DNA of 64,000 bases from sequence record MZ065353.1, one strand, 5' to 3'. This DNA comes from Escherichia virus KFS-EC3. The notes under the pieces were generated by a model that saw only the letters and a list, made by a program, of their open reading frames with translations, was not told the origin of the DNA and did not search any database. Positions 1,339 to 57,137 of this stretch are shown piece after piece; within the stretch, counting starts at the first letter, position 1; each line of letters opens with the position of its first letter. The position numbers were made by a program, and so were the translations under genes.

Positions 1339-1884
1339 ATGAGAAAAGCACTACTCGCTGGTCTATTGGCCATTTCAATGATGGCACATAGCTCCGAGCA
1401 TACTTTCAGTAATGTCCAACTCGATAACATGCGCTACGCATATCAATTCGGGGAACAATTTTCTAAGGATGGAAAATATAAAACACACAAAAATATCCAC
1501 AAGAGCGGATTGGGTCATATAATGGCTGCTATTTTATGGCAAGAAAGCTCTGCCGGAGTTAATTTAAAATCTAAACCAAAGCATCATGCCTATGGAATGT
1601 TCCAAAATTATTTGCCTACTATGCGAGCGAGAGTCAAGGAACTTGGTTATAATATGACCGATGCTGAAATAAAAAGAATGTTGAATAAACGGTCCAATTC
1701 AGCTTCCTGGGCGTACATTGAACTTTCTTATTGGTTAAATATACATAAGGGCGATATAAGAAAGGCGATATCCTCTTATAATTCGGGATGGAATGTTAAA
1801 GCAGGTTCTAAATATGCTTCTGAAGTCCTAGAAAAGGCTAATTACCTTAAAAATAATAAACTTTTGGAAATAGTAAATGACTAA
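1339..1884 (+). CDS. secreted lytic-transglycosylase-like protein (SLT motifs)
   Basis: N-terminal signal peptide; motifs WQESS, YGMFQ and SYNSG resemble SLT family motifs. Confidence 0.6.
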   Translation: MRKALLAGLLAISMMAHSSEHTFSNVQLDNMRYAYQFGEQFSKDGKYKTHKNIHKSGLGHIMAAILWQESSAGVNLKSKPKHHAYGMFQNYLPTMRARVKELGYNMTDAEIKRMLNKRSNSASWAYIELSYWLNIHKGDIRKAISSYNSGWNVKAGSKYASEVLEKANYLKNNKLLEIVND

Positions 1885-2218
1885 AATTTTGGTTTTATGT
1901 ATAGGATTAATTTCATTTTCTGCGTTAGCAGATACATCATATACTGAAATTAGAGAGTATGTAAACCGTACTGCCGCGGATTATTGTGGGAAAAATAAAG
2001 CATGCCAAGCTGAATTTGCGCAGAAATTAATATATGCATATAAAGACGGAGAAAGAGATAAATCAAGCAGATACAAAAATGATACATTGTTAAAACGATA
2101 TGCTAAAAAGTGGAATACCTTAGAATGTTCAGTTGCGGAGGAGAAAGATAAAGCCGCTTGTCATTCAATGGTTGACCGTTTAGTAGATTCTTATAATCGA
2201 GGATTGAGTACTAGATGA
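1877..2218 (+). CDS. secreted hypothetical protein (113 aa)
   Basis: hydrophobic signal-like N-terminus; overlapping stop/start coupling with neighbours. Confidence 0.55.
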   Translation: MTKILVLCIGLISFSALADTSYTEIREYVNRTAADYCGKNKACQAEFAQKLIYAYKDGERDKSSRYKNDTLLKRYAKKWNTLECSVAEEKDKAACHSMVDRLVDSYNRGLSTR

Positions 2219-4033: not shown

Positions 4034-4041
4034 TATAAATA
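4034..4041 (+). promoter_or_regulatory. possible late promoter (TATAAATA)
   Basis: exact TATAAATA 26 nt upstream of the ATG at 4067. Confidence 0.35.
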
Positions 4042-4291: not shown

Positions 4292-4585
4292 ATGGCCTTA
4301 AAAGCAACGGCACTATTTGCCATGCTAGGATTAGCGTTTGCTTTATCTCCACCAATTGAAGCGAATGTCGATCCTCATTTTGATAAATTTATGGAATCTG
4401 GTATTAGACATGTTTATATGCTTTTTGAAAATAAAAGCGTAGAATCATCTGAACAGTTCTATAGTTTTATGCGAACGACTTATAAAAATGACCCGTGCTC
4501 TTCCGATTTTGAATGTATAGAGCGAGGCGCGGAGATGGCACAATCATACGCTAGAATTATGAACATTAAATTGGAGACTGAATGA
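4292..4585 (+). CDS. rI: lysis-inhibition regulator rI (signal-anchored periplasmic protein)
   Basis: 97 aa; sequence recognised as T4 RI; AGGAGG RBS. Confidence 0.85.
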   Translation: MALKATALFAMLGLAFALSPPIEANVDPHFDKFMESGIRHVYMLFENKSVESSEQFYSFMRTTYKNDPCSSDFECIERGAEMAQSYARIMNIKLETE

Positions 4586-16034: not shown

Positions 16035-16508
16035 ATGTTATTGACTGGCAAATTATATAAAGAAGAAAAACAGAAATTTTATGATGCACAAAACGGTAAA
16101 TGCTTAATTTGCCAACGAGAACTAAATCCTGATGTTCAAGCTAATCACCTCGATCATGACCATGAATTAAATGGACCAAAAGCAGGAAAGGTACGTGGAT
16201 TGCTTTGTAATCTCTGCAATGCCGCAGAAGGTCAAATGAAACACAAATTTAATCGTTCTGGCTTAAAGGGACAAGGCGTTGATTATCTTGAATGGTTAGA
16301 AAATTTACTTACTTATTTAAAATCCGATTACACCCAAAATAATATTCACCCTAACTTCGTTGGAGATAAATCAAAGGAATTTTCTCGTTTAGGAAAAGAG
16401 GAAATGATGGCTGAGATGCTTCAAAGAGGATTTGAATATAATGAATCTGACACTAAAACACAATTAATAGCTTCATTTAAGAAGCAGCTTAGAAAGAGTT
16501 TAAAATGA
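16035..16508 (+). CDS. 49: endonuclease VII (Holliday-junction resolvase)
   Basis: 157 aa; zinc-binding CxxC...CxxC; length and order match T4 gp49. Confidence 0.9.
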   Translation: MLLTGKLYKEEKQKFYDAQNGKCLICQRELNPDVQANHLDHDHELNGPKAGKVRGLLCNLCNAAEGQMKHKFNRSGLKGQGVDYLEWLENLLTYLKSDYTQNNIHPNFVGDKSKEFSRLGKEEMMAEMLQRGFEYNESDTKTQLIASFKKQLRKSLK

Positions 16509-18322
16509 CAATTGAAAAAGAAATTGAAGGATTGATTCATAAAACTAATAAAGACCTTTTGAACGAGAATGCTAATAAAGATTCTCGTGTTTTTCCAACT
16601 CAACGGGACCTTATGGCTGGTATTGTGTCTAAACACATTGCCAAAAATATGGTCCCGTCTTTTATTATGAAAGCGCATGAAAGCGGAATTATCCATTTCC
16701 ATGATATTGATTATTCCCCTGCTCTTCCATTTACTAATTGCTGTTTAGTAGATTTAAAAGGAATGCTTGAAAACGGATTTAAGCTAGGCAATGCACAGAT
16801 TGAAACTCCTAAATCAATCGGCGTTGCTACTGCAATTATGGCACAAATTACTGCACAGGTCGCTTCACATCAGTATGGCGGAACGACTTTTGCTAATGTA
16901 GATAAAATACTTTCTCCTTATGTTAAACGCACCTATGCAAAACATATTGAGGATGCAGAAAAATGGCAAATCGCTGATGCGTTGAATTATGCCCAATCTA
17001 AAACAGAAAAAGACGTATACGATGCATTCCAAGCTTATGAATATGAAGTAAATACTCTCTTTAGTTCAAACGGACAAACGCCTTTTGTAACAATTACATT
17101 TGGTACGGGAACTGACTGGACTGAACGAATGATTCAGAAAGCAATTCTGAAAAATCGCATTAAAGGCCTTGGTCGCGATGGGATAACTCCTATTTTCCCT
17201 AAGCTTGTTATGTTCGTTGAAGAAGGTGTTAATCTTTATAAAGACGATCCGAACTATGATATTAAGCAGCTTGCTCTAGAGTGTGCAAGCAAAAGAATGT
17301 ATCCTGATATTATTTCAGCTAAGAACAATAAAGCTATCACCGGTTCATCTATTCCTGTTTCTCCAATGGGTTGCCGTAGTTTCTTAAGCGTATGGAAAGA
17401 TTCGACTGGTAATGAAATTCTTGATGGACGTAATAATCTTGGCGTTGTAACACTGAATCTTCCTCGTATTGCGTTAGATTCTTATATTGGAACACAGTTT
17501 AATGAACAGAAATTTACTGAATTATTCAATGAGCGAATGGATTTATGTTTTGAAGCTTTGATGTGTAGAATTAGTTCCTTAAAAGGAGTTAAAGCGACTG
17601 TTGCTCCTATTCTTTACCAAGAAGGTGCATTCGGGGTTCGTCTTAAACCTGATGATGACATAATTGAGTTATTTAAAAACGGTAGAAGTTCAGTGTCCCT
17701 AGGATACATTGGTATTCACGAATTGAATATTCTTGTCGGTCGTGATATTGGACAGGAAATTTTGACTAAAATGAATGCTCGTCTTAAACAGTGGACTGAA
17801 AGAACCGGTTTTGCTTTTAGCTTGTATTCTACACCTGCTGAAAACCTGTGCTATCGCTTCTGTAAACTTGATACTGAAAAATATGGAAGTGTAAAAGATG
17901 TTACTGATAAAGGCTGGTACACTAACAGTTTCCATGTTTCAGTAGAAGAAAATATCACTCCGTTTGAAAAGATTTCTCGCGAAGCACCATATCATTTCAT
18001 TGCGACAGGTGGTCACATTTCTTATGTTGAACTTCCTGATATGAAAAATAACCTAAAGGGTCTTGAGGCTGTATGGGATTATGCTGCACAACATTTAGAT
18101 TATTTTGGTGTTAACATGCCAGTAGATAAATGTTTTACGTGTGGAAGTACCCATGAAATGACTCCTACTGAAAACGGGTTTGTTTGTTCTATTTGTGGAG
18201 AAACTGATCCTAAAAAGATGAACACAATAAGAAGAACTTGTGGTTATTTGGGAAATCCGAACGAACGCGGATTTAATCTCGGCAAAAATAAAGAAATCAT
18301 GCATAGGGTTAAACACCAATGA
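16505..18322 (+). CDS. nrdD: anaerobic ribonucleotide reductase, large subunit (intron-less)
   Basis: 605 aa contiguous ORF; glycyl-radical motif RTCGYLG; C-terminal Zn ribbon. Confidence 0.95.
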   Translation: MTIEKEIEGLIHKTNKDLLNENANKDSRVFPTQRDLMAGIVSKHIAKNMVPSFIMKAHESGIIHFHDIDYSPALPFTNCCLVDLKGMLENGFKLGNAQIETPKSIGVATAIMAQITAQVASHQYGGTTFANVDKILSPYVKRTYAKHIEDAEKWQIADALNYAQSKTEKDVYDAFQAYEYEVNTLFSSNGQTPFVTITFGTGTDWTERMIQKAILKNRIKGLGRDGITPIFPKLVMFVEEGVNLYKDDPNYDIKQLALECASKRMYPDIISAKNNKAITGSSIPVSPMGCRSFLSVWKDSTGNEILDGRNNLGVVTLNLPRIALDSYIGTQFNEQKFTELFNERMDLCFEALMCRISSLKGVKATVAPILYQEGAFGVRLKPDDDIIELFKNGRSSVSLGYIGIHELNILVGRDIGQEILTKMNARLKQWTERTGFAFSLYSTPAENLCYRFCKLDTEKYGSVKDVTDKGWYTNSFHVSVEENITPFEKISREAPYHFIATGGHISYVELPDMKNNLKGLEAVWDYAAQHLDYFGVNMPVDKCFTCGSTHEMTPTENGFVCSICGETDPKKMNTIRRTCGYLGNPNERGFNLGKNKEIMHRVKHQ

Positions 18323-18789
18323 ATTATGATAGATTTTATCCTTGCGATTTTGTGAATGGCCCTGGATGCAGGGTCGTTCTTTTCGTCACAGGTTGTTTGC
18401 ATAAATGCGAAGGGTGTTATAATAAATCAACATGGAATGCTAGAAATGGCGTTCCATTCACTGGTGAAACACTGGAACAATTAATTGAATGTTTGAATAA
18501 TGATTATATAGAAGGATTAACTATAACTGGAGGAGACCCTCTCTATCCTGATAACCGAGATGTTGTTCATTGCATTGTTCAAACAGTAAAAAATCTTTAT
18601 CCCAATAAAAGCATTTGGTTGTGGACAGGATATAAATTTGAAGATATTAAACAACTAGAAATGCTTAAATATGTTGATGTTATTATTGATGGGAAGTATG
18701 AGAAAAATCTTCCGACCAAAAAGCTGTGGCGAGGATCAGATAATCAGCGACTTTGGTCAAATACCGATGGGGTGTGGAAACATGATTAA
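18319..18789 (+). CDS. nrdG: anaerobic RNR activating enzyme (radical SAM)
   Basis: 156 aa; CLHKCEGC radical-SAM cysteine cluster; ATGA coupling to nrdD. Confidence 0.95.
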   Translation: MNYDRFYPCDFVNGPGCRVVLFVTGCLHKCEGCYNKSTWNARNGVPFTGETLEQLIECLNNDYIEGLTITGGDPLYPDNRDVVHCIVQTVKNLYPNKSIWLWTGYKFEDIKQLEMLKYVDVIIDGKYEKNLPTKKLWRGSDNQRLWSNTDGVWKHD

Positions 18790-18895
18790 ATTGAATTATA
18801 TTATGGACACTATAAATGATATGATTTTTCATTTTGGTCCAGAATTTTATTCGCAATATAGTTTAGTGCTTATCAATGCTTGGTTAATCAATTAA
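18782..18895 (+). CDS. possible small ORF (37 aa)
   Basis: ATG overlapping nrdG end; no strong RBS. Confidence 0.25.
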   Translation: MIKLNYIMDTINDMIFHFGPEFYSQYSLVLINAWLIN

Positions 18896-18904
18896 GGGTA
18901 AAAT

Positions 18905-19117
18905 ATGTATAAATTTCGTAAAGGTTTAGCTGATTTTCTTACAACTGTAACATTCTTTTTGTTTATGGCAGTTGGAGCTATTTTTCTTATTCCTTTTATT
19001 GCTATATTTTTCGTGATTAGTTTGATTTCTCCAGAAAAAGGACTGTCTTCTAGCGAGTTCAATGAGCGTCTGGATAAAATTACTAATAAGCTGAATGCTG
19101 CTCTTAGTAAGGAATAG
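18905..19117 (+). CDS. small membrane protein (70 aa)
   Basis: two hydrophobic helices; AAGGGTAAAAT RBS. Confidence 0.5.
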   Translation: MYKFRKGLADFLTTVTFFLFMAVGAIFLIPFIAIFFVISLISPEKGLSSSEFNERLDKITNKLNAALSKE

Positions 19118-20986: not shown

Positions 20987-21251
20987 AATTAATTAATATT
21001 TCTATTGCTATTGAAAATTTTGGTATTTTCTATGTTGACCAATACATGAAAATTTCATTTTTCCAAATAAGATTGGTGTTGGATATTGGGAAAGCCATGT
21101 TTCTGAATTAAATGAAAGTGAATATGCTAGCACACATGAAAAGTTTTTAGACTTTTTATATCATGCTGATTTAACTAGTCATTACATAGATATTCATGAA
21201 TTTAAAAAGATGATGGAAAAAGTGTTCCAAGCATACTGCTTACTTAGATAA
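20983..21251 (+). pseudogene. probable frameshifted small gene (about 89 codons across two frames)
   Basis: ATG at 20983 opens a 43-codon frame; overlapping it, a 71-codon protein-like frame (21039-21251) has no start codon. Confidence 0.3.
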
Positions 21252-21329
21252 CTGATATCCTCTATGCTTTAAGATAGATCTTCAAATATTATGATATAAT
21301 AGATCTATGAATTGAGCTAAGAGGTGAAA

Positions 21330-41642: not shown

Positions 41643-42268
41643 TGCTTTACCAAATGCACAAGTGCAAAGATACATACAAATATAAAGGTGCCCAGTGTTA
41701 TATCATTAATCGTGAAAACGCGGGTCCAGGTCATTCGCATCAATCACGGTTTGTATTCGTTAAAAACAATGAAATTATAGCAGTTGCTAATTACATGCTT
41801 GTGACTAATGACGTTAATCCGGTGCCTTTTACATATTATAATCTAATGGACTTGGCGTACGATTATAATTGGTTTAATCATGATAATTTGGCTCATATTG
41901 AAGGCGTAGGATTTGACATCTCTTATTCTAGTTACTCGTTATGTCCTATGAGCAGAGCTCATAAAGAGCCTGAATATTTTTCATTTCGTCGGCGTGTAGA
42001 CTTTAAACGCAGCACAGAGTATGTCGGTGGAATCTTTGTTAAAGATAATCGAATTACTCGCATTATTTATCCTTTGGGCTGTGGTCAAAAAGATATTGAT
42101 GTTGATTTAGACTTTACTGAAAACATCATTAATCATATTGCTTCTGTGTATTTTGATATTGATCACAAAATTGTAATATGTGGATATGAATTACCATCAG
42201 AAAAACAGTCTAAAGTGAATGTTTCTATTGATGACCAAATTTTTAATGCTTTTATGAATAGAGGTTAA
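41642..42268 (+). CDS. hypothetical protein (208 aa)
   Basis: ORF track; ATGC overlap with sp stop. Confidence 0.6.
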   Translation: MLYQMHKCKDTYKYKGAQCYIINRENAGPGHSHQSRFVFVKNNEIIAVANYMLVTNDVNPVPFTYYNLMDLAYDYNWFNHDNLAHIEGVGFDISYSSYSLCPMSRAHKEPEYFSFRRRVDFKRSTEYVGGIFVKDNRITRIIYPLGCGQKDIDVDLDFTENIINHIASVYFDIDHKIVICGYELPSEKQSKVNVSIDDQIFNAFMNRG

Positions 42269-42436: not shown

Positions 42437-43465
42437 ATGTCATCAATACCTTGGATTGATAATGAGTTTGCATATCGTGCATTAGCTCATTTACCTAAAT
42501 TCACACAAGTAAATAATAGTTCAACTTTTAAATTGCGGTTTAGATGCCCTGTTTGTGGAGATTCAAAAACCGACCAAAATAAAGCCCGTGGATGGTATTA
42601 TGGCGATAATAATGAAGGAAATATTCATTGTTATAACTGCAACTATCATGCACCAATCGGAATATATTTAAAGGAGTTTGAACCCGATTTATATCGTGAG
42701 TATATCTTTGAAATAAGAAAAGAAAAAGGTAAAAGTCGTCCAGTAGAAAAACCTAAAGAACTTCCTAAACAACCTGAGAAGAAAATAATTAAATCTCTTC
42801 CGTCATGCATTAGATTAGATAAATTGGCGGAAGACCATCCAATTATAAAATATGTAAAAGCTCGCTGTATTCCAAAGGATAAATGGAAATATCTTTGGTT
42901 TACAACCGAATGGCCTAAATTAGTTAATAGCATAGCACCAGGAACATACAAAAAGGAAATACCTGAGCCTCGTCTTGTTATTCCAATTTATAATGCTAAT
43001 GGAAAAGCTGAGTCTTTTCAAGGACGTGCATTAAAGAAAGATGCTCCTCAAAAATATATCACCATCAAAGCTTATCCTGAAGCAACAAAAATCTATGGCG
43101 TTGAACGAGTTAAAGATGGTGATGTATATGTTCTAGAAGGACCTATAGATTCACTTTTTATTGAAAATGGTATAGCTATTACAGGTGGTCAATTAGACCT
43201 AGAAATTGTTCCATTTAAAGATAGACGTGTGTGGGTTTTAGATAATGAACCTCGTCATCCTGACACTATTAAACGAATGACTAAATTAGTTGATGCAGGA
43301 GAAAGGGTTATGTTTTGGGACAAATCTCCCTGGAAATCAAAAGATGTTAATGATATGATTAGAAAGGAAGGTGCAACCCCTGAACAAATTATGGAATATA
43401 TGAAAAATAATATTGCCCAGGGGTTGATGGCTAAAATGCGGCTATCTAAATATGCTAAGATTTAA
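42437..43465 (+). CDS. 61: DNA primase
   Basis: 342 aa; zinc-ribbon CPVCGDS...CYNC; TOPRIM region; length matches T4 gp61. Confidence 0.95.
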   Translation: MSSIPWIDNEFAYRALAHLPKFTQVNNSSTFKLRFRCPVCGDSKTDQNKARGWYYGDNNEGNIHCYNCNYHAPIGIYLKEFEPDLYREYIFEIRKEKGKSRPVEKPKELPKQPEKKIIKSLPSCIRLDKLAEDHPIIKYVKARCIPKDKWKYLWFTTEWPKLVNSIAPGTYKKEIPEPRLVIPIYNANGKAESFQGRALKKDAPQKYITIKAYPEATKIYGVERVKDGDVYVLEGPIDSLFIENGIAITGGQLDLEIVPFKDRRVWVLDNEPRHPDTIKRMTKLVDAGERVMFWDKSPWKSKDVNDMIRKEGATPEQIMEYMKNNIAQGLMAKMRLSKYAKI

Positions 43466-43662
43466 ATTAACCCAACTAAAGCAAATGCTAAATCTACGAA
43501 TGTATCAAGAGTAATTACTGGAATATTAACACCATGAGCAATAGCAATTGGTGATAAAACAAAATTCCAAAGTAAAATTCCTACCATAGCAGAAATAGTA
43601 AAAGCTATACGTTTTTTATTACCTTTTATGGCATTAACAAGTGCCATTAATTTTTGTACCAT
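43462..43662 (-). CDS. antisense small membrane protein (66 aa)
   Basis: minus-strand ATG preceded by AAGGAGG at 4 nt; two hydrophobic helices; stop overlaps gp61 stop. Confidence 0.45.
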   Translation of the reverse strand: MVQKLMALVNAIKGNKKRIAFTISAMVGILLWNFVLSPIAIAHGVNIPVITLDTFVDLAFALVGLI

Positions 43663-43672
43663 ATGTCCTCCT

Positions 43673-43698
43673 TATTGCTTTATATATTTATTGTATAA
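43673..43698 (+). promoter_or_regulatory. MotA-dependent middle promoter candidate for gene 56
   Basis: MotA box ATTGCTTTA about 12 nt upstream of TATAAT. Confidence 0.45.
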
Positions 43699-43733
43699 TT
43701 AATCTACTAACCCATGAATTGAAAGGAAAAATA

Positions 43734-44252
43734 ATGGCTTACTTTAATGAATGTTCGCAACTGATCGAAGGCGCTGATAAAGCTCAAAATGAATACTGGG
43801 ATATTCTCGGTGACGAAAAAGACCCACTGCAAGTTATGCTTGATATGCAGAAATCTTTGCAGGTTCGTTTAGCTAAAGATAAACCTGAATATAACCGTCA
43901 TCCTGATGATTTGGCTACTGCAGGCGAAGTTGTCGATTGGCTGCGTAATCAGAAAGATTACATTGATGATGAATTCCGTGAACTTCTGACTTCTCTTGGT
44001 GGTATGAGCAATGGTGAAAAAGATGCATCTGCTGTATGGAAGCCTTGGAAGTCGCAGCATGGTGAACGTCGTGAAACTCTAATTACTGATTTGTCACCAC
44101 AAGACCAATTGGAAATTAAATTCGAAATGATTGATATTCTTCATTTCGTTCTGAACATGTTCCAAGGTCTCGGTCTTACGGCTGAAGAAATCTTTAAACT
44201 TTATTATCTGAAAAATGCTGAAAACTTCGCTCGTCAAGACCGAGGTTATTAA
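43734..44252 (+). CDS. 56: dCTPase/dUTPase
   Basis: 172 aa from ATG 43734; MazG-like; length and position match T4 gp56. Confidence 0.85.
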   Translation: MAYFNECSQLIEGADKAQNEYWDILGDEKDPLQVMLDMQKSLQVRLAKDKPEYNRHPDDLATAGEVVDWLRNQKDYIDDEFRELLTSLGGMSNGEKDASAVWKPWKSQHGERRETLITDLSPQDQLEIKFEMIDILHFVLNMFQGLGLTAEEIFKLYYLKNAENFARQDRGY

Positions 44253-52250: not shown

Positions 52251-52256
52251 AAAGTT

Positions 52257-52286
52257 GTTTACTTCCTCGGTTAGTTATGGTATTAT
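52257..52286 (+). promoter_or_regulatory. T4-type early promoter
   Basis: GTTTAC, 17 nt, GTATTAT; a 30-codon ORF (52314-52406) follows. Confidence 0.5.
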
Positions 52287-52408
52287 AACACCATAGCTAC
52301 TGAGGATAATAAAATGAAAATTTATCGTGTTGAACTTCTGAACGTTGTTCATGCAGGTGATTTTAGCGTAGTACCTCGTAGTGCAGTGGTAGCTATTTTA
52401 AATTAATA

Positions 52409-52438
52409 GTTTACAAACTCTTGGGACCAGAGTATAAT
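52409..52438 (+). promoter_or_regulatory. T4-type early promoter
   Basis: GTTTAC, 17 nt, GTATAAT; GGACC/GGTCC inverted repeat around the -10. Confidence 0.55.
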
Positions 52439-52482
52439 GGTCCTGTGGAGTATAAAATCTTTTTAACAAGTGAGAGATAACT

Positions 52483-54613: not shown

Positions 54614-54985
54614 ATGTTTAAAATCGGTAAGAAATATCGTATTCGCGAAGGTGAAGAACAGAAATATCTACTTTCTGCTAGTAATAGGAATAGTTCTATT
54701 AATGCCGTAATATCTACAAGCGAATTTATCGTTGAAGATATGAAAGGTCATAATGTTACAATGATTAGTACAGCATCTGGAAATGATGGAAAAATTCTTC
54801 ATAGTTGTCAGAGTAATGTTCTAATTTATGATGAAGAATTTGACTTCTTCAAAGAAGTTTCCGAAGATTTTAATTTTGAATGTACTATCACTATGAAATC
54901 TGGCGACCCTCTTTCTTTTACAGTTAAAGATGAAAGAAGTCGCTTGAGAATTATTAGTCTCCTTCAAGCCATTAAATTTGAGTGA
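54614..54985 (+). CDS. hypothetical protein (123 aa)
   Basis: ORF track. Confidence 0.55.
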   Translation: MFKIGKKYRIREGEEQKYLLSASNRNSSINAVISTSEFIVEDMKGHNVTMISTASGNDGKILHSCQSNVLIYDEEFDFFKEVSEDFNFECTITMKSGDPLSFTVKDERSRLRIISLLQAIKFE

Positions 54986-54989
54986 AATT

Positions 54990-55250
54990 ATGAAATATGT
55001 TAATCGTTCTATCGCGGCATTAGTATTAGCAGTATCTTTAGTAGGATGTACTGATGCTGATAATGCAACCAAAGTTTTGTCTTCAAGTGGTTTTACTAAT
55101 ATTGAAATCACTGGATATAATTGGTTCGGTTGCTCTGAAAATGATTTCCAGCATACTGGATTTCGTGCTATTGGACCTACCGGGCAGAAAGTAGAAGGAA
55201 CCGTATGTTCTGGTCTATTCTTCAAGGATTCGACTATCCGTTTTAAATAA
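54990..55250 (+). CDS. lipoprotein (86 aa)
   Basis: signal peptide with lipobox LVGC. Confidence 0.55.
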   Translation: MKYVNRSIAALVLAVSLVGCTDADNATKVLSSSGFTNIEITGYNWFGCSENDFQHTGFRAIGPTGQKVEGTVCSGLFFKDSTIRFK

Positions 55251-55267
55251 AAGGCCTTCGGGCCTTT
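55251..55267 (+). terminator. hairpin terminator
   Basis: AAGGCC-TTCG-GGCCTT after the stop. Confidence 0.5.
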
Positions 55268-55319
55268 AGCTTTATGATTACCGGAGTATAATATTCCCGA
55301 AACCAAACGAGGATAAGTG

Positions 55320-57137
55320 ATGATTAAGAATGAAATTAAAATTCTGAGCGATATTGAACATATCAAAAAGCGTAGCGGCATGTACATTGGTTCTTCTGCT
55401 AATGAAATGCATGAGCGCTTTCTGTTTGGTAAATGGGAAAGTGTTCAGTATGTACCTGGTCTTGTTAAGCTTATTGATGAAATTATCGATAACTCAGTAG
55501 ATGAAGGTATTCGTACTAAGTTTAAATTCGCGAATAAAATTAATGTTACTATTAAAAACAATCAAGTAACAGTTGAAGATAACGGTCGTGGTATTCCACA
55601 AGCGATGGTTAAAACACCTACTGGTGAAGAAATTCCTGGTCCTGTTGCTGCCTGGACTATTCCAAAAGCAGGTGGTAACTTTGGTGATGATAAAGAACGC
55701 GTCACTGGCGGTATGAATGGTGTTGGTTCTAGTTTAACTAACATTTTTTCTGTGATGTTTGTTGGTGAAACTGGCGACGGTCAAAATAATATTGTAGTTC
55801 GTTGTTCAAATGGCATGGAAAATAAATCATGGGAAACTATTCCTGGAAAATGGAAAGGAACTCGTGTTACTTTCATTCCTGATTTTATGTCATTTGAAAC
55901 TAATGAGCTATCTCAAGTTTATCTTGACATTACACTGGATCGTCTCCAGACACTTGCAGTAGTTTATCCTGATATTCAATTTACCTTTAACGGTAAAAAG
56001 GTTCAGGGTAATTTTAAGAAATATGCACGCCAATATGATGAGCATGCTATCGTTCAAGAACAGGAAAACTGTTCTATTGCGGTCGGTCGTTCACCCGACG
56101 GTTTTCGTCAATTAACATACGTTAATAACATTCATACTAAGAATGGTGGCCATCACATTGACTGTGTTATGGATGATATTTGTGAAGACCTTATTCCACA
56201 AATCAAACGTAAATTTAAAATTGACGTAACTAAAGCACGTGTTAAAGAATGTTTGACTATCGTTATGTTTGTTCGTGATATGAAAAACATGCGATTTGAT
56301 TCTCAGACTAAAGAGCGTTTGACTTCTCCATTTGGTGAAATTCGTAGTCATATTCAGCTTGATGCTAAAAAGATTTCACGTGCTATTTTAAATAATGAAG
56401 CAATTTTAATGCCAATTATTGAAGCTGCTTTGGCTCGTAAATTGGCGGCAGAAAAAGCAGCAGAAACTAAAGCAGCTAAAAAGGCTTCTAAAGCTAAGGT
56501 TCATAAACATATTAAAGCGAATCTTTGTGGTAAAGATGCTGACACGACTCTTTTCTTGACTGAGGGTGATTCTGCTATCGGATATCTTATTGATGTTCGT
56601 GATAAAGAACTTCATGGTGGTTATCCATTACGTGGTAAAGTTCTCAACAGTTGGGGTATGTCATATGCTGATATGCTTAAAAATAAAGAACTGTTTGATA
56701 TTTGCGCAATCACTGGATTAGTTCTTGGTGAAAAGGCTGAAAACTTAAATTATCATAATATTGCCATTATGACTGACGCTGACCATGATGGTCTAGGAAG
56801 CATTTATCCTTCTCTGCTCGGATTTTTTAGTAATTGGCCAGAACTGTTTGAACAAGGAAGAATTCGCTTTGTCAAAACTCCTGTAATCATCGCTCAGGTC
56901 GGTAAAAAACAAGAATGGTTTTATACAGTCGCTGAATATGAGAGTGCCAAAGATGCTCTACCTAAACATAGCATCCGTTATATTAAAGGACTTGGCTCTT
57001 TGGAAAAATCTGAATATCGTGAGATGATTCAAAATCCAGTATATGATGTTGTTAAACTTCCTGAGAACTGGAAAGAGCTTTTTGAAATGCTCATGGGAGA
57101 TAATGCTGACCTTCGTAAAGAATGGATGAGCCAATAG
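55320..57137 (+). CDS. 39: DNA topoisomerase II large subunit (GyrB-like), uninterrupted
   Basis: 605 aa single ORF; GHKL ATPase and TOPRIM motifs; no gene 39/60 split. Confidence 0.95.
   Translation: MIKNEIKILSDIEHIKKRSGMYIGSSANEMHERFLFGKWESVQYVPGLVKLIDEIIDNSVDEGIRTKFKFANKINVTIKNNQVTVEDNGRGIPQAMVKTPTGEEIPGPVAAWTIPKAGGNFGDDKERVTGGMNGVGSSLTNIFSVMFVGETGDGQNNIVVRCSNGMENKSWETIPGKWKGTRVTFIPDFMSFETNELSQVYLDITLDRLQTLAVVYPDIQFTFNGKKVQGNFKKYARQYDEHAIVQEQENCSIAVGRSPDGFRQLTYVNNIHTKNGGHHIDCVMDDICEDLIPQIKRKFKIDVTKARVKECLTIVMFVRDMKNMRFDSQTKERLTSPFGEIRSHIQLDAKKISRAILNNEAILMPIIEAALARKLAAEKAAETKAAKKASKAKVHKHIKANLCGKDADTTLFLTEGDSAIGYLIDVRDKELHGGYPLRGKVLNSWGMSYADMLKNKELFDICAITGLVLGEKAENLNYHNIAIMTDADHDGLGSIYPSLLGFFSNWPELFEQGRIRFVKTPVIIAQVGKKQEWFYTVAEYESAKDALPKHSIRYIKGLGSLEKSEYREMIQNPVYDVVKLPENWKELFEMLMGDNADLRKEWMSQ

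What the first reader, a model, noticed from the sequence alone, without database searches (positions are those of the whole stretch)
43462..43662. Convergent antisense small membrane-protein gene with a canonical RBS in the gene 61 / gene 56 gap
This is the only minus-strand ORF of 60 or more codons that does not overlap a supported plus-strand gene. It has 66 codons, with its ATG preceded by AAGGAGG at 4-nt spacing. The product (MVQKLMALVNAIKGNKKRIAFTISAMVGILLWNFVLSPIAIAHGVNIPVITLDTFVDLAFALVGLI) has two hydrophobic segments. Its stop overlaps the gp61 stop (shared TTAA), and its RBS sits directly beside a MotA-box/TATAAT middle promoter for gene 56. From memory, T4 carries dam in this interval; no methyltransferase ORF is present here.
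Basis: partly seen in the sequence, partly recalled or inferred. Interest (0 to 1): 0.55.

Follow-up and report, generated by a model that had tools for sequence, protein, structure and literature searches.

The report
Conserved late small membrane-protein gene
The 66-codon reverse-strand reading frame between the primase and dCTPase genes of this T4-type phage is a real, widely conserved gene for a small membrane protein of unknown function, probably switched on late in infection; it is already annotated as a hypothetical protein in hundreds of relatives, though not in the T4 reference genome.

Summary
Window 43462..43662 (-) is a 66-codon ATG ORF with AAGGAGG 4 nt upstream and a stop that overlaps the gene 61 stop (TTAA). 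It is the only one of 62 minus-strand ORFs of 60 aa or more that has a strong ribosome-binding site, that is essentially free of plus-strand coding, and that matches a phage protein family (phrog_2024, E 5e-31).

It is a real gene.
- It is intact in about 690 phage records.
- It holds the same position, convergent with primase, in at least six Tevenvirinae genera at 30-55% identity.
- Five residues are invariant (W32, N33, P38, G44, P48).
- dN/dS is about 0.1-0.4.

T4 itself carries it at 94% identity in the unannotated dam-61 gap of NC_000866.

Upstream sits AATAAATA, the commonest variant of the T4 late promoter. Its core ATAAATA occurs only 5 times in 64 kb against 40 expected, and it is kept before this ORF in all genera examined but one. 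Here it lies inside the spacer of the gene 56 middle promoter.

The product has a basic N-terminus, one transmembrane helix and a short C-terminal helix. It has no Pfam, NCBIfam, PADLOC or PDB relative. The "holin" labels on two copies are unsupported.

Verdict: an ordinary, already catalogued gene of unknown function, with modest interest.

The parts
43462..43662 (-). Coding sequence of the 66-aa small membrane protein (RB32ORF030w / phrog_2024 family), stop codon included
   Evidence: the ORF; phrog_2024, E 5.4e-31, full length; 692 phage records; dN/dS below 1; invariant W32, N33, P38, G44, P48.
43667..43673 (-). Shine-Dalgarno sequence AAGGAGG, 4 nt before the ATG
   Evidence: sequence; the only minus-strand ORF of 60 aa or more with a strong SD. 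GGAGG or AGGAG is kept upstream in all orthologues.
43685..43692 (-). Late-promoter-like box AATAAATA (gp55 type, the A(-13) variant). The inferred transcription start is near 43679, giving a leader of about 17 nt
   Evidence: ATAAATA occurs 5 times in 64 kb against 40+/-5.7 expected; it is the rarest of the 21 A5T2 permutations, and 4 of the 5 sites precede an SD plus ATG. ATAAATA is kept upstream of the ORF in Tequatro-, Mosig-, Gapriver-, Dhaka- and Jiaodavirus and in L019, in unrelated flanking sequence. PMC2988020: A(-13) is the commonest T4 late-promoter variant. The start site is inferred, not measured.
43462..43465 (.). TTAA shared by the stop codons of gene 61 (+) and the small ORF (-)
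   Evidence: The same 4-nt overlap is present in T4, RB51, ST0, VR25 copy B, CkP1 and dhabil.
42437..43465 (+). Gene 61 (DNA primase), the convergent neighbour
   Evidence: 342 aa; annotated as DNA primase in relatives; 99% identical to T4 gp61.
43628..43657 (+). Terminator-like hairpin (43628..43647) plus T-run on the early strand, lying inside codons 6-12 of the small ORF. It is probably the end of the gene 61 transcript
   Evidence: A terminator is annotated at the same place in Yersinia phage fPS-2. The hairpin is present only in Tequatrovirus, not in the other genera.
43673..43699 (+). Middle promoter of gene 56: MotA box TAT-TGCTTTA (43673..43682), 11-nt spacer, -10 TATAAT (43694..43699). 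The late box for the small ORF lies in the spacer on the other strand
   Evidence: sequence. Consensus from PMC2988021. A middle promoter is annotated at this place in fPS-2. This is a consensus match only.
43734..44252 (+). Gene 56 (dCTPase/dUTPase), the divergent neighbour
   Evidence: Annotated as dCTP pyrophosphatase in relatives.

Best explanation
This is a genuine protein-coding gene, a member of the RB32ORF030w / RB69ORF029w / phrog_2024 family that is conserved in the T-even-like phages of enterobacteria.

Expression (inferred). It is the only gene of reverse polarity in this early-gene block. It is therefore silent early and is transcribed late in infection by gp55-RNA polymerase from the AATAAATA box at 43692..43685. 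That gives a short leader of about 17 nt carrying a strong ribosome-binding site.

Local layout (shown from sequence). In this dam-less genome the late box sits in the spacer of the oppositely oriented middle promoter of gene 56. No terminator was found on the minus strand, so the transcript would run on as antisense into the 3' end of gene 61.

Product (inferred). It is a 66-residue inner-membrane protein. It has a basic cytoplasmic N-terminus (5 Lys/Arg), one transmembrane helix of about 24 residues, a turn (H/Q/Y)G-x-x-(L/I/V)-P, and a short C-terminal helix on the periplasmic side. The invariant residues (W32, N33, P38, G44, P48) cluster in the outer half of the helix and in the turn.

Mechanism (a guess). 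It most likely works not as an enzyme or a pore but by packing its conserved helix face against another membrane protein late in infection. My best guess for the process is envelope or lysis-timing control.

My confidence step by step: real gene about 0.95; late expression about 0.8; single-span topology with the N-terminus inside about 0.65; a role in lysis or envelope control about 0.2-0.25.
For: Real gene:
- Full-length match to phrog_2024, E 5.4e-31; all ten diverse members match it.
- Present in 692 phage records, 686 of them at 80% coverage or more.
- Positional orthologues between primase and dCTPase, on the opposite strand, in Mosigvirus, Gaprivervirus, Jiaodavirus, Karamvirus and Dhakavirus and in an uncultured contig.
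- 30-55% identity with five invariant residues, while primase is 60-74% identical.
- dN/dS is 0.07-0.4 in most Tequatrovirus pairs (one near-identical pair, with 3 differences, gives 0.61), 0.1-0.3 in Jiaodavirus and 0.35-0.63 in Gaprivervirus. In the B type dS is saturated between genera with dN 0.24.
- It is the only minus-strand ORF with a strong SD.

Late expression:
- ATAAATA is 8-fold depleted in the window (5 against 40), and 4 of the 5 sites precede an SD plus ATG. These include the sites before rI.-1/rI, the 157-aa gene-49-sized ORF and soc.
- The heptamer is kept 13-22 nt upstream of the ATG in six lineages although the flanks differ.
- A(-13) is the commonest late-promoter variant, and all early and middle T4 transcripts share the other polarity (PMC2988020; PMC1524935).
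- No sigma-70-like promoter was found on the minus strand.

Membrane protein:
- GRAVY 1.25; the transmembrane segment has a mean Kyte-Doolittle value of 2.0.
- AlphaFold predicts helices 2-12, 16-42 and 52-63, mean pLDDT 76.
- The N-terminus carries 4-6 Lys/Arg in all genera.
Against: There is no expression data. No strand-specific RNA-seq, ribosome profiling or proteomic result for this ORF could be found or used.

The promoter box deviates from TATAAATA at position -13 in every lineage (A, G or C). It is ATTAAATA in Karamvirus CkP1. In Jiaodavirus and L019 the nearest box is so close that the leader would barely hold the SD.

The topology rests on hydrophobicity and the positive-inside rule only. 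In Tequatrovirus the C-terminal 18 residues are hydrophobic enough (Kyte-Doolittle 2.07) to re-enter the membrane.

Nothing links the protein to any particular partner or process. There is no informative neighbour, no domain and no structural relative.

From general knowledge of T4 genetics, no essential or r-type locus has been mapped to the dam-61 gap, so any phenotype is probably subtle.
Confidence: 0.7

Rival explanations
1. It is a holin or pinholin, as two database records label it: a small late membrane protein that oligomerises and permeabilises the inner membrane to trigger lysis.
For: It is small, probably expressed late and has one or two hydrophobic helices with polar residues within them (N33, D53, D57). 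UniProt names the OE5505 copy 'Holin', and the EAWsc9 record says 'holin family protein'.
Against: It matches no holin family in Pfam or NCBIfam, even at E 10, for any of ten members, and PHROGs lists its family as of unknown function. The C-terminus is hydrophobic and acidic rather than the charged cytoplasmic tail typical of holins, and the basic cluster is at the N-terminus. It is not next to an endolysin or spanin gene. From established T4 knowledge, gene t encodes the holin and t mutants fail to lyse, so this protein is not sufficient for lysis.
Confidence: 0.08
2. The main product is RNA, not protein. A late antisense transcript starting here runs into the 3' end of gene 61 and silences primase mRNA late in infection; the ORF is secondary.
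For: The genes converge and overlap by 4 nt in most genera. No terminator-like site was found on the minus strand downstream of the ORF. Late T4 transcripts can have either polarity, and both strands are transcribed at several sites (PMC2988020).
Against: Conservation is at the protein level: invariant residues at 30-55% identity with saturated synonymous sites between genera, and dN/dS below 1. A strong SD is kept in every lineage. In Jiaodavirus KPV15 a GC-rich hairpin separates the ORF from primase, so read-through is not conserved. An antisense effect could be an extra, not the main role.
Confidence: 0.07
3. It is a chance ORF. The interval is conserved for other reasons, such as the gene 61 terminator, the gene 56 promoter or origin region, or the scar of dam loss.
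For: ORFs of this length are common on the minus strand (62 in the window). A terminator-like hairpin for gene 61 lies inside its 5' end. The T4 reference annotation omits it.
Against: The hairpin covers 30 nt and exists only in Tequatrovirus. The frame, SD and promoter box are kept in at least six genera with diverged DNA. dN/dS is below 1. T4 has dam and the ORF together, so it is not a deletion scar. Other minus-strand ORFs have no family match.
Confidence: 0.02
4. It is a counter-defence or exclusion factor: a small membrane protein that neutralises a membrane-bound host defence system or blocks superinfecting phage, and so matters only in particular hosts.
For: It evolves faster than its neighbours (31-54% against 60-74% for primase). 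There is gain and loss of paralogues: two tandem copies in VR25, a decayed second copy in EAWsc9, and the B type alone in Dhakavirus. It is restricted to phages of Enterobacterales. Selection is relaxed where a paralogue exists. It sits in a block rich in host-interaction genes (sp, 61.4, dmd).
Against: Late expression is an odd time for most counter-defence or exclusion functions. T4 Imm and Sp act early (general knowledge). It has no similarity to any known defence or anti-defence protein. It is nearly universal in the group rather than patchy.
Confidence: 0.13

Closest known systems
RB32ORF030w / RB69ORF029w hypothetical proteins (PHROG family phrog_2024, unknown function)
   Same: This is the same gene. 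The product is 100% identical to annotated proteins of phages ime09 and vB_SsoM_113 and 97% identical to RB51 RB32ORF030w. It matches the profile over its full length. It holds the same position and orientation between genes 61 and 56.
   Different: Nothing differs. The family has no assigned function and no literature that I could find.
T4 late genes embedded in the early region (soc, rI.-1/rI, gene 49), driven by TATAAATA-type promoters
   Same: It has an ATAAATA core box 20-30 nt upstream of an SD plus ATG, as before soc (44638), rI.-1/rI (4035) and the 157-aa ORF at 16035 in this window. The last uses the same AATAAATA variant.
   Different: Those genes lie on the early strand; this one is on the opposite strand and converges on gene 61. 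Its box is nested in the spacer of a middle promoter. Promoter activity has not been shown.
T4 RI antiholin (small late membrane-anchored regulator of the holin T)
   Same: Both are small, probably late, with an N-terminal membrane segment and a C-terminus facing the periplasm. This is the kind of helix- or domain-mediated modulator I propose.
   Different: There is no sequence similarity to the RI copy in this window (best segment 6 residues, E 0.33 for a single comparison). RI has a periplasmic domain of about 70 residues; this protein has about 18-24 residues after the membrane helix.
Class II holins / pinholins (for example S21 of phage 21)
   Same: Similar size (60-70 aa), hydrophobic helices and probably late expression.
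   Different: It matches no holin family profile. It has no charged C-terminal tail. It is not in a lysis cassette. T4 already has an unrelated holin, T (general knowledge).

Membership tests
phrog_2024 (RB32ORF030w / RB69ORF029w family) | Significant full-length match to the family profile | tested here: met
   E 5.4e-31, residues 2-66 against profile positions 1-65 of 65. All 10 diverse members match.
phrog_2024 (RB32ORF030w / RB69ORF029w family) | Position between primase (61) and dCTPase (56), on the opposite strand and convergent with 61 | tested here: met
   Window; T4, RB51, fPS-2, ST0, VR25, KPV15, CkP1 and dhabil.
phrog_2024 (RB32ORF030w / RB69ORF029w family) | Conserved motif W-N-x4-P-x5-G-x3-P after a basic N-terminus | tested here: met
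   W32, N33, P38, G44 and P48 are invariant in a 10-sequence cross-genus alignment. The N-terminus carries 4-6 K/R.
T4-type late gene (gp55-dependent) | TATAAATA-type box at -13 to -6, just upstream of the gene | tested here: met
   AATAAATA at 43692..43685. A(-13) is the commonest variant, 9 of 50 T4 sites (PMC2988020). The core is conserved in six lineages.
T4-type late gene (gp55-dependent) | A transcript that appears only late and depends on gp55, gp33 and gp45 | not testable with these tools
   No expression data are accessible. The published T4 omics paper I opened has no mention of antisense or unannotated features.
Holin | Match to a curated holin family (Pfam or NCBIfam) | tested here: not met
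   No holin family hit at E up to 10 for any of 10 members.
Holin | At least one transmembrane helix followed by a charged, hydrophilic C-terminal domain | tested here: not met
   The transmembrane helix is present, but the C-terminus is hydrophobic and acidic (VITLDTFVDLAFALVGLI, no K/R).
Holin | Genetic linkage with endolysin or spanin genes | tested here: not met
   The neighbours are primase and dCTPase in every genus examined.
Holin | Forms lethal membrane lesions and is required for lysis | not testable with these tools
   This needs expression and knockout experiments. From general knowledge, T4 lysis depends on gene t.
RI-type antiholin | Sequence similarity to RI, and a periplasmic domain that binds holin T | tested here: not met
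   BLASTP against the window's own RI (4292..4585) gives only 6-residue segments, E 0.33. The tail after the membrane helix is about 18-24 residues.

The most novel reading that the evidence does not exclude
A late-expressed inner-membrane protein that is conserved across the enterobacterial T-even phages, yet missing from the T4 reference annotation, may be an overlooked component of late envelope biology. Candidate roles are a helix-packing partner of the holin T / RI / spanin machinery that tunes lysis timing or lysis inhibition, or a late membrane-level counter-defence factor. The locus would also be a compact bidirectional switch: a late promoter nested in the spacer of the gene 56 middle promoter, and the gene 61 terminator written into the small gene's coding sequence.
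Probability: 0.2. Interest if true: 0.6.

Novelty: already known. Interest (0 to 1): 0.3.

Why it matters
The gene adds one more conserved protein of unknown function to the best-studied phage group. It shows that even the T4 reference annotation omits a gene that comparative data support strongly.

If the protein proves to take part in lysis timing, lysis inhibition or membrane-level host interplay, it would add a player to a classic system that is thought to be fully inventoried.

The strong depletion of the late-promoter heptamer is also a practical result. The few sites that remain are good predictors of late transcription units in T4-type genomes.

Tried and rejected
Domain and family searches:
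- Pfam, NCBIfam and PADLOC on the protein and on ten diverse members found nothing relevant. The only hits were chance ones at E above 0.02 to Borrelia P13 and SNARE.
- A PDB profile search gave nothing below E 0.15.
- Foldseek against viral models found only family members; the top hit is the OE5505 copy labelled 'Holin'.
- An exhaustive HMM search of 1.84 billion representative proteins gave only 6 clusters, three full-length or nearly so and three short fragments matching only the N-terminal part, so the family has no distant or bacterial relatives.
- Rfam found no hit anywhere in the window.

Hypotheses tested and dropped:
- I tested whether the terminator-like hairpin inside the ORF explains its conservation. 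It does not, because the hairpin exists only in Tequatrovirus.
- I considered RI-like antiholin ancestry because of a locally similar 'FVLSP' string recalled from memory. The window's RI reads 'FALSP', and BLASTP shows no similarity.
- I checked whether other large minus-strand ORFs could be genes. None has a PHROG match.

Literature: searches for the ORF names, T4 ribosome profiling, unannotated T4 ORFs, candidate gene names such as 61.-1, and transposon or CRISPRi fitness maps found nothing on this locus. The 2003 T4 genome review is not held in the library.
Full report
WHAT IS THERE

The window is a Tequatrovirus (T4-type) genome segment. The 1.4 kb around the finding is 99.4% identical to Shigella phage SH-1 and 95-99% identical to more than 330 other phage records.

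Local gene order on the plus strand is sp, 61.2, 61.1 and 61 (primase, 42437..43465), then a gap, then 56 (dCTPase, 43734..44252) and soc.

The gap holds the reported ORF, 43462..43662 on the minus strand:
- 66 codons, starting at ATG;
- AAGGAGG at 43673..43667, with a spacing of 4 nt;
- a stop codon that shares TTAA (43462..43465) with the stop of gene 61.

IS IT MORE THAN CHANCE?

Length alone is not significant. The window has 62 minus-strand ORFs of 60 aa or more. This one stands apart on four counts:
- It is the only one of the 62 preceded by a strong Shine-Dalgarno core.
- It has by far the least overlap with plus-strand ORFs (0.13 against 0.41 or more). The residual overlap is the 4 nt shared with gene 61 plus a mechanical GTG extension of gene 56.
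- It matches a phage protein family over its full length (phrog_2024, E 5.4e-31).
- The eight largest other minus-strand ORFs match nothing.

IT IS A REAL, CONSERVED GENE

A tblastn search finds the protein in 692 phage records, 686 of them over at least 80% of its length. It is annotated in many of them as a hypothetical protein. RB51 names it RB32ORF030w, 'similar to RB69ORF029w'.

Orthologues sit at the same place, between primase and dCTPase, on the opposite strand and convergent with primase, in:
- Mosigvirus ST0;
- Gaprivervirus VR25;
- Jiaodavirus KPV15;
- Karamvirus CkP1;
- Dhakavirus dhabil;
- uncultured viral contigs.

Identity to the window protein falls to 30-55%, while primase stays at 60-74%. 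W32, N33, P38, G44 and P48 are invariant, and A40 is nearly so.

Synonymous changes dominate:
- Tequatrovirus: dN/dS is 0.07-0.4 in most pairs (one near-identical pair, with 3 differences, gives 0.61), and variable sites by codon position are 7/2/12.
- Jiaodavirus: 0.1-0.3.
- Gaprivervirus: 0.35-0.63.
- B-type copies of two genera: synonymous sites are saturated, with dN 0.24.

The family is narrow. An exhaustive profile search of 1.84 billion representative proteins returns only six clusters, and all hosts are Enterobacterales.

T4 ITSELF

That is right, but T4 has both genes. In NC_000866.4, dam is at 16846..17625 and gene 61 at 17935..18963. The 309-nt gap between them holds an intact 66-codon ORF (17738..17938), 94% identical to the window protein. 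The RefSeq record leaves it unannotated, as do several other T4, T2 and PP01 records. The ORF is therefore not a scar of dam loss.

HOW IT IS PROBABLY EXPRESSED

All T4 early and middle transcripts share one polarity; only late transcripts can have the other (PMC2988020). No sigma-70-like promoter is seen on the minus strand here.

AATAAATA lies at 43692..43685, 22 nt upstream of the ATG. The T4 late promoter is TATAAATA at -13 to -6. A at -13 is its commonest variant, found at 9 of 50 listed sites, and T/A variation at -13 is usual in T4-like phages (PMC1524935).

The core ATAAATA is strikingly rare in the window:
- It occurs at 5 sites on both strands against 40 +/- 5.7 expected.
- It is the rarest of all 21 permutations of its letters.
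- Four of the five sites lie about 20-32 nt upstream of an SD plus ATG: before rI.-1/rI (4035), before the 157-aa ORF at 16035, before soc (44638), and before this ORF.

The heptamer is kept 13-22 nt upstream of the ORF in the following lineages, although the surrounding sequence differs:
- T4-type and RB51-type Tequatrovirus;
- Mosigvirus;
- Gaprivervirus;
- Dhakavirus;
- Jiaodavirus;
- contig L019.

Only Karamvirus CkP1 deviates, with ATTAAATA.

I therefore infer a gp55-dependent late promoter, a start near 43679 and a leader of about 17 nt. This is inference from sequence; there is no transcript evidence.

LOCAL ARCHITECTURE

On the plus strand the same stretch is a consensus middle promoter for gene 56. 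The MotA box TAT-TGCTTTA is at 43673..43682, followed by an 11-nt spacer and TATAAT at 43694..43699. This fits the published (a/t)3TGCTTtA placed 12+/-1 bp from TAtaaT (PMC2988021). A middle promoter is annotated at this place in phage fPS-2. The late box lies inside that spacer on the other strand.

A terminator-like hairpin with a T-run on the plus strand (43628..43657) lies within codons 6-12 of the small ORF (also annotated in fPS-2). It probably ends the gene 61 transcript. It exists only in Tequatrovirus, so it cannot explain conservation of the ORF.

No terminator was found on the minus strand after the ORF. The late transcript should therefore run antisense into gene 61. In KPV15 a GC-rich hairpin separates the two genes.

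THE PROTEIN

- GRAVY is 1.25.
- AlphaFold, with a shallow alignment, gives helices 2-12, 16-42 and 52-63, mean pLDDT 76.
- Across genera the plan is constant: an N-terminus with 4-6 Lys/Arg; a hydrophobic helix of about 24 residues holding W-N and P; a turn (H/Q/Y)G-x-x-(L/I/V)-P; then 16-19 residues.
- Mean hydrophobicity of that tail ranges from 0.5 to 2.2. It often carries an acidic residue and, in some genera, Lys, His or Arg.

I read this as a single-span protein with the N-terminus inside and the C-terminus outside, and a short helix at the periplasmic face. In Tequatrovirus the tail is hydrophobic enough to re-enter the membrane, so a hairpin is not excluded.

WHAT IT IS NOT

- No Pfam, NCBIfam, PADLOC or PDB relative was found.
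- Structural search finds only family members.
- The 'Holin' and 'holin family protein' labels on two copies have no profile support, and the architecture lacks the charged C-terminal tail of holins.
- It is not similar to the RI antiholin encoded in the same window.
- The dhabil copy is mislabelled 'dCTP pyrophosphatase'.

EVOLUTIONARY DYNAMICS

Two subfamilies exist. VR25 has an A and a B copy in tandem. EAWsc9 keeps A next to a decayed B remnant. Dhakavirus has B only. This turnover, a rate faster than that of primase, and relaxed constraint where a paralogue is present all fit an accessory role at the phage-host or envelope interface.

MECHANISM

What is shown:
- It is a conserved coding sequence under purifying selection.
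- It has a strong SD.
- It has a conserved late-promoter-like box.
- It has reverse polarity.

What is inferred:
- It is transcribed late by gp55-polymerase.
- It inserts into the inner membrane with the N-terminus inside.

What is guessed: it acts by helix packing against another membrane protein late in infection, most plausibly in envelope or lysis-timing control (about 0.2-0.25). The alternatives are:
- a membrane-level counter-defence or exclusion role (about 0.13);
- a true holin (about 0.08);
- a mainly antisense-RNA role (about 0.07).

I found no paper on this ORF.

VERDICT

The gene is already catalogued (phrog_2024; hundreds of 'hypothetical protein' annotations), so I rate novelty as 'already known' and interest as 0.3.

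The points of modest interest are:
- its absence from the T4 reference annotation;
- the conserved late box nested in a middle promoter;
- the genome-wide avoidance of the late-promoter heptamer.

Noticed in passing
window, whole (sites at 4035, 15998 and 44638 on +; 43691 and 42070 on -): The late-promoter core ATAAATA is about 8-fold depleted: 5 sites against 40+/-5.7 expected. It is the rarest of all 21 permutations of A5T2. Four of the five sites precede an SD plus ATG (rI.-1/rI, the 157-aa ORF at 16035, soc, and the 66-aa ORF). This suggests selection against stray late promoters in the early region.
   Followed up: partly
window 42064..42070 (-), inside gene 61.2: The fifth ATAAATA site (GATAAATA) lies antisense inside gene 61.2 and has no ORF to serve. 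The same box is present in T4 (L002 4331) and in phage fPS-2 (L004 3093). It may be a late antisense promoter, or it may be kept by the coding constraint of 61.2.
   Followed up: partly
T4 RefSeq NC_000866.4 17738..17938 (L002 2739..2939): T4 itself carries the intact 66-codon ORF in the dam-61 gap, but the reference record does not annotate it. Several other T4, T2 and PP01 records omit it as well.
   Followed up: yes
window 43628..43657 (+): A terminator-like hairpin plus T-run for the gene 61 transcript is written into codons 6-12 of the reverse-strand gene. It is present only in Tequatrovirus. In KPV15 a separate GC-rich hairpin lies between the two genes instead.
   Followed up: partly
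L006 1495..1692 and 1701..1901; L024 1201..1398 plus downstream remnant; L025 1474..1674: The family has two subtypes. Gaprivervirus VR25 has both in tandem. EAWsc9 has one copy plus a decayed remnant of the second. Dhakavirus dhabil has only the second type.
   Followed up: partly
L025 1474..1674 (dhabil_90); L024 1201..1398; UniProt A0A482MZV5: There are annotation errors or unsupported labels in public records. The dhabil copy is called 'dCTP pyrophosphatase'. The EAWsc9 and OE5505 copies are called holin, although no holin profile matches them.
   Followed up: yes
window 20987..21323 and 52251..52482: These are the two longest stretches without any plus-strand ORF of 50 aa or more (337 and 232 nt). 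There is no Rfam hit anywhere in the window. I did not examine them further.
   Followed up: no
window 54821..55387 (-): A 188-aa ATG ORF on the minus strand, 88% overlapped by plus-strand ORFs, has no PHROG match. The stretch of phage ime09 I fetched as the approximate counterpart (the coordinates do not map exactly) has only plus-orientation genes (goF, cef). It is probably spurious.
   Followed up: partly
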